A stretch of DNA of 64,000 nt. It comes from the human T2T-CHM13v2.0 reference genome, Homo sapiens. The notes below the pieces were generated by a model. It searched no databases, had not been told where the DNA came from, and saw only the letters and a program-made list of their open reading frames with translations. The stretch is from assembly GCF_009914755.1 (NCBI RefSeq), contig NC_060925.1. The stretch is one strand, 5' to 3'. A program made the position numbers and the translations under genes. Below, in pieces: positions 1,021-36,595 of this stretch (position 1 is the first letter of the stretch; every line of letters starts with the position of its first letter).

Positions 1021-1866
1021 AAAGTTTCACTTCCTTTTCCTAGTGTACAGCCTGCAGTGGGGCATCTAGCCTCCTAGGGTTGGTTCTAGCCAAGTTGGTA
1101 TTGAGTTGAATGGTCTTCTGCCACTGAGCTGAGCCAAAGACCCCAAGCCTGGTGTCTAAAACCCCTCACTAAGAGCCCATCTTGGAGATAAGTCAGGGAC
1201 TGATGCCTCTGATTAGGCCGTCCCTCCCTGTCTTGGGGAATCAAGGTGACACGAGGAAACCCTCATTCAGCTTGCATTCTCCAAAAATAGCCTATCACTC
1301 ACCAAACTCTTCCCAGCTGTCATCCCAGTAAATTCCCCCAACAACCCTGAGGTTGGGCTCCGTTACCAGTCACGTTTTAAACAGCTAGTCACCAGGGCTC
1401 TTGGCTGTTGGATTTCACGGCCTGTGATCTTAACCCAGAGCCCTTAAGAAATTGGAGGTGAATTTTGGCTCCAAGGGCAGTCCCTGCTGCAAGCTTGGAA
1501 TTTCCATCCTTCCCTGCCTTTCATCTGGGAATAGAGAGGGGCCTGGACACCGCCACCTCCTGGTGCACTGAATGTACCCAGGCTTGCTTCAAAACCAGCC
1601 ACCTGGCTCCCACTCTCAGCAGTAAGTCCCCACTCCCTCACAACCACAATCTTTTTCCTGGGTGTTTTTTTTGTTTTTTCTTTCTGTGGCTCTGGCCTTC
1701 TCTCCCTGAAAATACAGTTTGCTGATATTAAAAACACACACACACAATCACAAACACATTTTATATAGTCTTTGAAGTCTACTGGCCTCAGGCTCCTGGA
1801 CTGATAAGTATGCAGATAGAGCGCAGACCAGAGCTGGGAAGACAGTACCCTGTGCAGGCGGAGGCA

Positions 1867-1949: not shown

Positions 1950-2377
<428 letters not shown>

Positions 2378-3479
2378 CATCAGGGATTCCCTCTCAAAAC
2401 AGGGAGGGGAAAAGGATGTTTCATGTGCCCCAAGGCCTCAGAGGGCATCTTCGTGCCCAGGAAAAAGATTAAGATGGGGAATTGTTGAGGTTCTGGGGTC
2501 AGTGTAGTTCTAGAAAAGAGGCACGTTTATAAATTGTGGCAGGCAGGGTAAAGAGGAGGGTACAGAACAGTAACCTCTGTCAGCCCCTTCAAAGCTGCTA
2601 CAAAGCTGCCTGGATAAGGACACTGCCCACCAGATACTCAGCAGAATCACTGGGGCAGTGATGCCCTCCTGGCACAGCAGCAGACGCCCAGCTCTTTGTA
2701 AACCCAGGGAAGGAAGGTGCCACCTTAAGGGAACTCCCAGGTTGATGAGCACAGGGCTGCAGGGAGAACCCAGACATTAGGACCTGATGGCCTGATGAGG
2801 TGGTGGAGGACAGAGCCCATGACCTCCTAGGTACTGAGAGCTCCCAGGCTGAGGAGAAAGCTCCAGCTCTTGTTTCACAGGGAAGTCCCCAGTGAAATAG
2901 GGGAAGGAGGACCTACATAAGCACAGGAAGCTCCGACGCAGAAGTCCTCTTCACTCTCAATTCTGCAGTCACCAAACCTGGCACCTCTTACCCATCCCCA
3001 GACTTGTGCCAAGGGGTCTCGCAGAGGAGCCTTCCCTACTTTCAATGCTTACTGTGTTGCTTTCAAAGCTTGGTCCCCGCATCTAGTCTGAATTCTCTGA
3101 CTGCCTTGGGTCCCTCAGAAAGAGACATCTGACCCCACTTCACTTCCACTTAACCTGCACTGTCCCATCCATCCCCATCACCCCTCTCCCCAATTCCACC
3201 CCACCCATCTGTACCACCCATCCCTGCAGCTTCTCAGCTCCCTAGTGTCCTCACCTTTGTACATGGCTTCCAGCAATGGAACCCCTGTTTGTGAGCTCAT
3301 CACTTGTCGAGGGCTGGGCTCCTGATCTCATCAGCTTCATCTCTCAGCTCCTAACACAGTGCCCAGCCACTATGTTTATCTCACATTAGCTACATGGCCC
3401 ATGTATGTTATCTCATCAATACATAGGAGACCAAGGCTCTGAGAAGCCTGACAACTCGCTCCCCCATCACCCGGGGAAT

Positions 3480-26299: not shown

Positions 26300-26962
<663 letters not shown>

Positions 26963-35478: not shown

Positions 35479-35783
35479 CCTGACATCTCTCTCTCCTTCC
35501 TTCCTCGTATCCAATCCATCACCAAGCTCGCCAACCCATCACCACTTCTGTCTCCTCAACATCAATTCCATCCTCTTCTCTCCATCTCCACCTCCATTGC
35601 CACCTACAGCATACTGTCTCTCCAGGACAACTACACCTGCTTCCTAATAGGCCTCTCTGCTCCCGCTTCCCTTCTGCTTCCAATCTGTTCTCAACACAGC
35701 AACAGCAGTGGCCTGGGTGTTCTTTTAAAACACGAATGCGATGATGGGATCGTGCCCCTCCAATGCTTAAAACCTCCAGTGAC

Positions 35784-36089
35784 GGCTGGGCGCGGTGGCT
35801 CACGCCTGTAATCCCAGCACTTTGGGAGGCCGAGGCGGGTGGATCATGAGGTCAGGAGATCGAGACCATCCTGGGTAACATGGTGAACGCAGTTTCTACT
35901 AAAAATATAAAAAAAAAAATTAGCAGGGCTTGGTGGCAGGCGCCTGTAGTCCCAGCTACTCAGGAGGCTGAGGCAGGAGAATGGCGTGAACCCGGGAAGC
36001 GGAGCTTGCAGTGAGCCCAGATTGCGCCACTGCAGTCCGCAGTCCGGCCTGAGCGACAGAGCGAGACTCCGTCTCAAAAAAAAAAAAAA
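35784..36089 (+). mobile_element. AluYb8 (human-specific) with a non-Yb8 central tract
   Basis: GGGTGGATCATGAGG, CCCGGGAAGCGG, AGATTGCG and the 7-bp duplication GCAGTCCGCAGTCC; perfect TSD AAAACCTCCAGTGAC (35769-35783, 36086-36100); TT/AAAA endonuclease site. Confidence 0.96.
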
Positions 36090-36595
36090 CCTCCAGTGAC
36101 TCCTCAGTGCTCTCAGGATGAAATCTAAATTCCCAAATGTGCATGAACAGTGTTCTCGACCTGGTCTTTGCCTTTCCAGCCTCCTGCCTTGACACAGTCT
36201 CTCTCTGTCTCAGTCTCTGTCTTTGTCTCGTCCTCTCTCCCCAGCCTGTCACCATGCAGATTCTTTTGCCTAATCCACTCTACCCTCCTTCTGTCTTCCT
36301 CTGTCTCCCTCCTACTCATCCTTGCAGCCGCAGCCGAGATGTTGCCAGCTCAGGGGGAGTCAGATTCTAGGCCAGATCCCTGGCTCTGTGCCCCACAGCC
36401 CACCCTTTGCATCCCCCGCTCCGGCACCTGTCATGCACACACCACGTTATGGTGATCTCTGGTCCAGTCTGCAAATATGTTGTTGCCTGACACAAAGTAA
36501 ACAGTCGATGGATGCTGCTGTGCTCGTCATCGTTAAGTCATCACTATCATCATTTGCTCTGGCCAACTCCTGGTGTTTGCTGTCCTCTTAGAAGC

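What the first reader, a model, noticed from the sequence alone, without database searches (positions are those of the whole stretch)
35875..35962. AluYb8 centre overwritten by an older inverted Alu 33 kb away (ectopic gene conversion)
Seen: the Yb8 reads CTGGGTAACATGGTGAACGCAGTTTCTACTAAAAATAT(A)11TTAGCAGGGCTTGGTGGC...CTACTCAGG. The reverse complement of 2200-2286 is the same apart from one A in the run and one CpG transition. They share about 11 departures from the recalled AluY consensus, many not CpG transitions (GGGTAAC, GAACGCAGTTT, AATAT, long A-run, GCAGGGCTT). Outside the tract they differ (GATCG vs GATCA; GGAAGCGGAGC vs GGAGGCAAAGG). The Yb8 ends are near consensus, but its two central diagnostics (AACAAGG, GGGCGCGG) are missing. 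Both TSD pairs are intact and the older Alu shows no Yb8 centre, so the transfer was non-reciprocal. Inference: a human-lineage conversion with identifiable donor, direction and tract (minimum ~88 bp, maximum ~135 bp). Template switching during retrotransposition is an alternative. Alu conversion is a known process, but a local donor-acceptor pair this clear is notable.
Basis: partly seen in the sequence, partly recalled or inferred. Interest (0 to 1): 0.8.

Follow-up and report, generated by a model that had tools for sequence, protein, structure and literature searches.

The report
Young Alu patched from older neighbour
A young Alu repeat has had its middle 88-135 bases overwritten with the sequence of an older, oppositely oriented Alu 33.6 kb away, a clean but ordinary example of the known process of gene conversion between repeats.

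Summary

- **The pair.** The AluYb8 at 35784-36089 (+) and an older AluY-type element at 2066-2377 (-) are identical over 35863-35997, which matches the reverse complement of 2165-2298. The only exceptions are one A in the A-run and one CpG transition. The flanks outside this stretch differ.
- **Uniqueness.** A 36-mer carrying seven of the shared private variants occurs at only these two places in the 3.1-Gb assembly, even with up to 3 mismatches.
- **Yb8 identity.** Compared with 28 other Yb copies from the same genome, the Yb8 keeps all diagnostic states outside the tract. It lacks exactly the two inside it.
- **Direction.** The Yb8 has 13 departures inside the tract and 3 outside. The older Alu is evenly diverged (11 inside, 11-12 outside). 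The tract also carries AluY-type rather than Yb-type states. So the older Alu is the donor.
- **No crossover.** Both pairs of target-site duplications are intact.

Best reading: a post-insertion, non-reciprocal ectopic gene conversion (about 0.85).

Not tested here: timing on the human lineage, polymorphism, the ape state of the donor, and read-level support.

Partial Alu conversion, including old-to-young, is well documented. This is a clear new instance, not a new phenomenon. Interest is about 0.3.

The parts
35784..36089 (+). Acceptor: full-length AluYb8-type element (body 35784-36075, pure A-tail of 14 at 36076-36089)
   Evidence: It carries the 7-bp duplication and 6 of the 8 substitution differences that separate the empirical Yb consensus (28 copies) from the empirical AluY-type consensus (22 copies). 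Only 3 departures from the Yb consensus lie outside the tract (columns 4, 236, 270).
35773..35783 (+). 5' target-site duplication of the Yb8 (CCTCCAGTGAC)
   Evidence: identical to 36090-36100, 11 of 11.
36090..36100 (+). 3' target-site duplication of the Yb8
35875..35962 (+). Minimal converted tract (first to last shared private variant), 88 bp
   Evidence: It holds 10 shared point or indel states plus the lengthened A-run, and the AluY-type T at the Yb-diagnostic column 149.
35863..35997 (+). Maximal converted tract (between the nearest sites where the two Alus differ), 135 bp
   Evidence: It is bounded by 35862 (G vs A) and 35998 (A vs G).
35938..35938 (+). Single substitution inside the tract (A here, G in the donor): a new CpG transition in the Yb8 copy
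   Evidence: The donor, the Yb consensus (0.93) and the AluY-type consensus (0.77) all have G, so neither parent supplies the A.
2066..2377 (-). Donor: older AluY-type element (A-tail of 28 at 2066-2093), inverted relative to the Yb8
   Evidence: Against the empirical AluY-type consensus it has 11 departures inside the maximal tract and 11-12 outside, so it is evenly aged. It has no 7-bp duplication. Of the 8 Yb-type substitutions it shows only column 57 T, a CpG C-to-T site flanked by non-Yb states.
2200..2286 (-). Donor copy of the minimal tract (87 bp, one A fewer)
2165..2298 (-). Donor copy of the maximal tract (134 bp)
2377..2393 (-). 5' target-site duplication of the older Alu (its boundary with the Alu is ambiguous by 1-2 bases)
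   Evidence: 16 of 17 identical to 2049-2065.
2049..2065 (-). 3' target-site duplication of the older Alu

Best explanation
After the AluYb8 had inserted at 35784, a lesion in or near its centre was repaired by homology-directed copying. The template was the older, inverted AluY-type element 33.6 kb upstream on the same chromosome.

Between 88 and 135 bp of donor sequence replaced the Yb8 centre, including its A-rich linker. There was no exchange of flanks, so this was a non-crossover, non-reciprocal ectopic gene conversion. Afterwards the Yb8 copy gained one CpG transition (35938), and one of the two A-runs slipped by one A.

Shown:
- the copy itself;
- its uniqueness to these two loci;
- its limits;
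- the polarity (older Alu to Yb8);
- the intact flanks.

Inferred:
- that the trigger was a double-strand break repaired by synthesis-dependent strand annealing, rather than heteroduplex repair or a replication-fork template switch;
- that the event happened on the human lineage.
For: (1) Uniqueness. The 36-mer with seven shared private variants is found at these two places only in 3.1 Gb, exact and at up to 3 mismatches. The next-best genome hits to the 114-bp tract are 87-90% identical, against 98% for the partner (40 of 2056 candidates scored).

(2) The shared states are rare. Among 50 Alu copies not selected on the tract, no copy has more than 2 of the 10 shared point states (40 have none, 8 have one, 2 have two). 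Three of the states were seen in 0 of 50. Among 27 copies selected for similarity to the tract, the maximum is 4 of 10.

(3) Mosaic structure of the acceptor. It has 13 departures from the Yb consensus in 136 tract columns and 3 in 156 outside (Fisher p = 0.008). The other 28 Yb copies have 0-4 in those tract columns, except one chimera (L080).

(4) Polarity.
- The older Alu is evenly diverged, 11 of 136 inside vs 11 of 156 outside (p = 0.83).
- At the Yb-diagnostic columns the tract has the AluY state (column 149 T) or a state one CpG transition away from AluY (column 98, C to T). From the Yb states it would need more changes.
- The older Alu has no Yb states in the tract.

(5) No crossover: both pairs of target-site duplications match.

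(6) Proximity. The donor is one of only 9 other Alu matches in the 64-kb window, out of more than a million Alus in the genome (abstract of PMC3831846). This is expected for recombinational repair and not for a donor drawn at random.

(7) Precedent. Partial Alu conversions, including 12 cases of an old element overwriting a young one, are reported in PMC8230782. A rate of about 2% per element for the Ye, Ya5 and Yb8 subfamilies is given in PMC554112.
Against: - No orthologous or alternative-allele sequence was available. The pre-conversion state of the Yb8 is therefore inferred from the subfamily consensus, not observed.
- At 33.6 kb the pair lies beyond the roughly 10-kb range in which Alu-Alu conversion signal was reported. 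This figure comes from PMC8230782 citing Aleshin and Zhi; the original paper was not seen.
- A closer and more similar AluY was not used as donor: 26682-26962 (-), 9.1 kb away, 92.7% identical to a consensus-like Yb8, against 87.3% for the actual donor.
- Within the minimal tract alone the donor looks somewhat more diverged than elsewhere (11 of 89 vs 11 of 203, p = 0.05). That boundary is defined by the variants themselves, so the comparison is biased.
- The evidence comes from one assembly only.
Confidence: 0.85

Rival explanations
1. Template switching by the L1 reverse transcriptase during the Yb8's own retrotransposition. The cDNA began on Yb8 RNA, jumped to an RNA of the older Alu for about 100 nt, and then jumped back. 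On this view the mosaic was born at insertion.
For: The product (intact target-site duplications, mosaic body, junctions in stretches of identity) is the same as for conversion. That reverse transcriptases switch templates is recalled knowledge, not documented by any search here.
Against: It needs two switches, plus an RNA from an old element with no annotated transcript on its sense strand.

Nothing in this mechanism favours a donor 33.6 kb away in cis. The donor is one of 9 other Alus in the window, against more than a million genome-wide.

Donor and acceptor tracts differ by only 1 substitution plus 1 A-run slip in 88-135 bp. The Yb8 flanks carry 3 departures in 156 columns. This weakly favours an event later than insertion. 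It is weak because each of the three flank variants also occurs in 1-3 of the 28 other Yb copies and could have been inherited from the source element.
Confidence: 0.05
2. Replication-based template switch. A stalled fork in the Yb8 copied about 100 nt from the inverted Alu and then returned (microhomology- or homology-mediated, break-induced-replication-like). On this view there was no double-strand-break repair by strand annealing.
For: It gives the same non-reciprocal, non-crossover product. The inverted orientation is compatible with it. No call distinguishes it from break repair.
Against: There are no extra templated insertions, duplications or junction scars: the alignment is colinear and gap-free apart from the A-run. 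The distance of 33.6 kb is long for a switch within one fork (inference).
Confidence: 0.05
3. Assembly or polishing artefact: sequence from the older Alu was written into the Yb8 in the assembly.
For: Only one assembly was examined. PMC8230782 reports apparent Alu conversions in one gorilla assembly that vanished in later assemblies.
Against: The two copies are not identical: the A-run length and 35938 differ. The tract ends fall inside the Alu and are flanked by correct Yb8 diagnostics on both sides. The window is from a telomere-to-telomere long-read assembly according to the hub's note. Reads were not available to check.
Confidence: 0.02
4. Reverse polarity, or a common third source: the tract arose in the Yb8 and was copied into the older Alu, or both received it from an unrecognised Alu subfamily or a third locus.
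For: The tract is the most variant-dense part of both elements when the minimal limits are used.
Against: There is no third copy at up to 3 mismatches in 3.1 Gb.

The tract carries AluY-type states at the two Yb-diagnostic columns, not Yb-type states.

The older Alu is evenly diverged inside and outside the maximal tract (p = 0.83). The Yb8 is not (p = 0.008).
Confidence: 0.03

Closest known systems
Partial (hybrid or mosaic) Alu-Alu gene conversion, as catalogued in primates (Doronina, Reising and Schmitz 2021, PMC8230782; abstract, passages and section 3 read)
   Same: A non-reciprocal replacement of part of one Alu by another, with the flanks kept. The old-to-young direction is reported there in 12 of 52 AluS/AluY cases with known direction.
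   Different: Those cases are whole-monomer or whole-element changes, recognised by subfamily diagnostics. In the passages and the Results section read, Table 1 lists donors by subfamily and no donor locus is named; the supplementary tables were not opened. Here the tract is an internal 88-135-bp patch spanning the linker, and the individual donor locus is identified through its private mutations.
Homogenisation of neighbouring Alus through shared non-diagnostic mutations (Aleshin and Zhi 2010; known here only through its citation in PMC8230782)
   Same: The logic is the same: private, non-diagnostic variants shared by Alus that lie near each other.
   Different: That signal is reported within about 10 kb and is statistical. 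Here it is a single explicit pair 33.6 kb apart and inverted.
Gene conversion in young Alu subfamilies (Ya5, Yb8, Ye; PMC554112, passages read)
   Same: Short contiguous tracts that change diagnostic positions of young elements, at a rate of about 2% per element (3 of about 153 Ye elements, described as comparable to the rate for Ya5 and Yb8).
   Different: In the two partial Ye cases read, the 3' end was converted and the donor was named only by subfamily.
Other mosaic Yb8 copies in this genome (L075 and L080)
   Same: L075 is a Yb8 with an internal patch of another Alu type (columns 54-95). L080 joins a strongly diverged 5' half to a near-consensus Yb8 3' half.
   Different: No near-identical donor was found for L075. 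The best other hit is 95% identical and on another chromosome (40 of 235 candidates scored). The window pair stands out only because its donor is recognisable.

Membership tests
AluYb8 subfamily (acceptor, 35784-36089) | 7-bp tandem duplication (GCAGTCC twice) in the right arm | tested here: met
   The 31-mer signature that includes it has 1747 exact copies in the assembly, this one included. The duplication is named as the Yb8 hallmark in PMC3831846.
AluYb8 subfamily (acceptor, 35784-36089) | Yb-type substitutions outside the centre (alignment columns 57, 64, 216, 241, 260, 264) | tested here: met
   all six match the empirical consensus of 28 Yb copies and differ from the empirical AluY-type consensus of 22 copies.
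AluYb8 subfamily (acceptor, 35784-36089) | Two central Yb-type substitutions (column 98 A, column 149 C) | tested here: not met
   T and T, the same as the older Alu. Among the other Yb copies the Yb states occur in 27 of 28 and 25 of 28. This is the anomaly being explained. By its ends and its insertion the element is still a Yb8.
Interlocus (ectopic) gene conversion | A contiguous tract of shared private variants bounded on both sides by sites where the two copies differ | tested here: met
Interlocus (ectopic) gene conversion | The tract is not a subfamily trait (no other copies) | tested here: met
Interlocus (ectopic) gene conversion | Non-reciprocal and without crossover (flanking markers kept) | tested here: met
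   Both pairs of target-site duplications are intact. The older Alu has no Yb states in the tract.
Interlocus (ectopic) gene conversion | An observed pre-conversion state of the acceptor, and an older state of the donor (orthologues or unconverted alleles) | not testable with these tools
   No other primate or human assembly is held. The pre-conversion state is inferred from the consensus of 28 Yb copies.
AluY-type (donor, 2066-2377) | Matches AluY-type rather than Yb-type or AluS-type states | tested here: inconclusive
   It follows the empirical AluY-type consensus apart from 22-23 scattered departures, and it lacks the duplication. No curated subfamily library was available, so the exact subfamily is not assigned.

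The most novel reading that the evidence does not exclude
The event is human-specific and perhaps still polymorphic. It also reflects something more than random homology search. The repair reached an inverted partner 33.6 kb away, about three times the range reported for Alu-Alu conversion. In doing so it passed over a closer and more similar AluY at 9.1 kb. That could point to a stable chromatin contact between the two sites, or to repair templated by a transcript of the older Alu. If unconverted alleles survive, the locus would be a natural, datable single conversion event with known donor, tract and post-conversion mutations.
Probability: 0.08. Interest if true: 0.5.

Novelty: new member of a known kind. 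Interest (0 to 1): 0.3.

Why it matters
**Practical effect on annotation and dating.** A Yb8 that has lost its two central diagnostics and gained 12 'old' differences from the Yb consensus will be over-aged by divergence-based dating, and may be mis-assigned by subfamily callers. Here the divergence is 13 differences in 136 tract columns against 3 in 156 outside.

**A concrete example of old-to-young transfer.** The sequence of an old, inactive Alu is propagated into a young one, the 'life after death' direction noted in PMC8230782. Both the donor locus and the tract limits are known.

**Possible use as a marker.** If the converted allele is polymorphic, it would be a usable marker for tract length and timing of ectopic conversion in humans.

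It does not change what is known about the process.

Tried and rejected
- **Unrecognised subfamily.** Rejected: there is no third copy of the 36-mer at up to 3 mismatches in the assembly, and the nearest other Alus share at most 4 of the 10 shared states.
- **Reverse polarity.** Rejected on the even divergence of the older Alu and the AluY-type states in the tract.
- **Crossover or inversion between the inverted Alus.** Rejected: both pairs of target-site duplications match.
- **Reciprocal patch in the older Alu.** Its column 57 T equals the Yb state. However, this is a single CpG C-to-T site, flanked within a few bases by states private to the older Alu and by the AluY state at column 64. I read it as a coincidental CpG change.
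- **Dating the event.** One substitution and one A-run slip in 88-135 bp are too few to date it.
- **Comparator donor search.** I looked for a donor for the mosaic Yb8 L075 and found no near-identical partner.
- **Literature.** The original Aleshin and Zhi paper is not in the library. A search on template switching with Alu returned nothing specific. The supplements of PMC3831846 were listed but not opened, so whether this element is tabulated there is unknown. I ran no search for this specific locus, so I make no claim that it is unpublished.

Full report
**What is there**

Reading both strands shows two full-length Alu elements.

- The first is at 35784-36089 (+). It has a pure 14-A tail and a perfect 11-bp target-site duplication: CCTCCAGTGAC at 35773-35783 and 36090-36100.
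- The second is at 2066-2377 (-). It has a 28-A tail and a 17-bp target-site duplication that matches at 16 of 17 positions (2377-2393 and 2049-2065).

The elements are inverted relative to each other. They lie 33,407 bp apart end to end and 33,589 bp apart tract to tract.

**The shared tract**

In the pairwise alignment, and by direct extraction, 35863-35997 (135 bp) equals the reverse complement of 2165-2298 (134 bp). There are two exceptions: the A-run is 11 vs 10 A, and 35938 is A where 2224 is G.

Immediately outside, the two elements differ. On the left, 35862 is G where 2299 is A, with three more differences upstream. On the right, 35998 is A where 2164 is G, followed by many more differences and the 7-bp duplication that only the first element has.

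The first and last shared private variants are at 35875 and 35962.

**Is it more than chance or a subfamily trait?**

- A 36-mer covering seven of the shared variants (35873-35908) has two matches in the window at up to 3 mismatches. None of 100 shuffles reached two matches.
- In the whole assembly (3,117,275,501 bases, 24 contigs) it occurs at these two places only, both exact and at up to 3 mismatches. The reversed-pattern control gave zero.
- The pattern search is not blind to abundant repeats: the Yb8 31-mer signature returned 1747 exact matches.
- A 114-bp BLAST-type query over the tract returned the pair at 100% and 98%. The other 38 of 40 scored hits were at 87-90%. Only 40 of 2056 first-look candidates were scored, so this is supporting evidence only.

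**Empirical references**

| Set | Fetched | Dropped | Kept | Reason for dropping |
|---|---|---|---|---|
| Yb-signature loci | 34 | 6 (L035, L037, L065, L066, L078, L090) | 28 | the match did not span positions 10 or lower to 289 or higher |
| AluY-type loci | 24 | 2 (L043, L046) | 22 | same rule |
| Nearest hits to the tract | 28 | 1 (L032) | 27 | same rule |

The AluY-type set was chosen by similarity to the 3' 100 bp, so it is biased at column 270. It is unbiased for the tract.

The two consensuses differ at eight substitutions (columns 57, 64, 98, 149, 216, 241, 260, 264) plus the 7-bp duplication. The element at 35784 has the Yb state at the six substitutions outside the tract, and it has the duplication. 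At the two inside the tract it has T and T, as does the older Alu. Among the other Yb copies, column 98 is A in 27 of 28 and column 149 is C in 25 of 28.

**Rarity of the shared states**

I scored ten shared point or indel states (columns 92, 98, 103, 107, 109, 112, 126, 143, 148, 180) in the 50 copies not selected on the tract.

- 40 copies carry none, 8 carry one and 2 carry two.
- Three of the states (columns 103, 107, 109) were seen in 0 of 50.
- Among the 27 copies selected for similarity to the tract, the maximum is 4 of 10.

**Polarity**

- Against the Yb consensus, the Yb8 has 13 departures in the 136 columns of the maximal tract and 3 in the 156 columns outside (Fisher p = 0.008). The 28 other Yb copies have 0-4 in the same tract columns, apart from the chimera L080.
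- Against the AluY-type consensus, the older Alu has 11 departures inside and 11-12 outside (p = 0.83). One of the 12 outside is the biased column 270. The tract is therefore as old as the rest of that element.
- With the minimal limits the older Alu gives 11 of 89 vs 11 of 203 (p = 0.05). Those limits are set by the variants themselves.
- At column 149 the tract has the AluY state. At column 98 it has T, which is one CpG transition from the AluY C but a transversion from the Yb A.

Together these make the older Alu the donor. The older Alu has no Yb state in the tract, so the transfer was non-reciprocal. Both pairs of target-site duplications are intact, so there was no crossover. A crossover between inverted copies would have inverted the 33 kb between them and swapped the flanks.

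**After the event**

At 35938 the donor, the Yb consensus and the AluY-type consensus all have G. The A in the Yb8 is therefore a new CpG transition, not a gap in the tract. The one-A difference is homopolymer slippage in one of the two copies. One substitution in 88-135 bp is too little to date the event.

**Mechanism and rivals**

The best reading is homology-directed, non-crossover repair of a lesion in the Yb8 centre, using the older Alu in cis. Whether this was strand annealing after a double-strand break, heteroduplex repair or a replication-fork template switch cannot be told from the sequence.

- It needs two switches and an RNA of an old element.
- It gives no reason for the donor to be one of the 9 other Alu matches in this 64-kb window rather than any of the more than one million Alus in the genome (abstract of PMC3831846). 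I give it about 0.05.

An assembly artefact is unlikely, because the two copies are not identical and the tract sits between correct Yb8 diagnostics. Reads were not available, and PMC8230782 warns of spurious conversions in one gorilla assembly.

**Points against a tidy story**

- The donor is 87.3% identical to a consensus-like Yb8 (L087).
- A closer AluY at 26682-26962 (-), 9.1 kb away, is 92.7% identical and was not used.
- The distance of 33.6 kb exceeds the range of about 10 kb reported for Alu-Alu conversion signal (PMC8230782 citing Aleshin and Zhi; the original was not seen).

**Comparison with what is known**

- PMC8230782 (abstract, passages and section 3 read) lists 98 Alu-Alu conversions, of which 69 are partial. 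In 12 of the 52 AluS/AluY cases with known direction, an older type overwrote a younger one. [quoted passage not shown]
- PMC554112 (passages read) gives about 2% converted elements for Ye and says the rate is comparable for Ya5 and Yb8.
- PMC3831846 (passages read) reports that 2,545 of 3,179 Yb copies are human-specific. This is the only basis here for 'human lineage'.
- In my own sample of 28 other Yb copies, L075 carries an internal patch of another Alu type (columns 54-95) and L080 is a 5'/3' chimera. Mosaic Yb8s are therefore not rare.
- For L075 no near-identical donor appeared. The best other hit was 95% identical and on another chromosome (40 of 235 candidates scored). The recognisable donor is the one distinctive feature of the window pair.

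**Verdict**

The human-lineage timing, the ape state of the donor, polymorphism and read support remain untested. This is a clean new instance of a known process. Interest is about 0.3.

Noticed in passing
L075 (G000:C1:26628818-26631848), Alu at locus 1477-1764 (-): This is another Yb8-signature element with an internal patch (alignment columns about 54-95) carrying states of a different Alu type. It keeps the Yb state at column 98 and the whole 3' half. No near-identical donor was found among the 40 of 235 candidates scored; the best other hit is 95% identical and on another chromosome.
   Followed up: partly
L080 (G000:C1:30884061-30887091), Alu at locus 1477-1738 (-): A chimera. A strongly diverged 5' half (38 departures from the Yb consensus up to column 147) is followed by a 28-column gap and then a near-consensus Yb8 3' half with the duplication. 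It could be a conversion, a recombination product, or a truncated Yb8 inserted next to an old Alu.
   Followed up: no
window 26682-26962 (-): A young-looking AluY, 92.7% identical to a consensus-like Yb8. It is closer to the Yb8 (9.1 kb) and more similar to it than the actual donor, yet it shows no exchange with it.
   Followed up: partly
window 1-64000: The window is poor in Alus: 10 BLAST matches to a Yb8 query in 64 kb, counting the Yb8 itself and the donor.
   Followed up: no
window 36018 (alignment column 236): The C here (GAGCCCAG, where the Yb consensus has G) is shared by 3 of 28 other Yb copies (L034, L038, L081). It may mark a Yb sub-lineage rather than a mutation after insertion. 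The other two flank departures also recur: column 4 in L082 and in the chimera L080, column 270 in L036.
   Followed up: partly
window 2321 (alignment column 57): The older Alu has T here, which equals the Yb-diagnostic state. It is a single CpG C-to-T site flanked by non-Yb states, so I read it as coincidence and not as a reciprocal patch.
   Followed up: partly
window 35784-36089 relative to 36328: According to the hub's gene table, the Yb8 lies in sense orientation in intron 2 of LINC01654, about 240 bp upstream of exon 3. I did not examine any effect on splicing.
   Followed up: no
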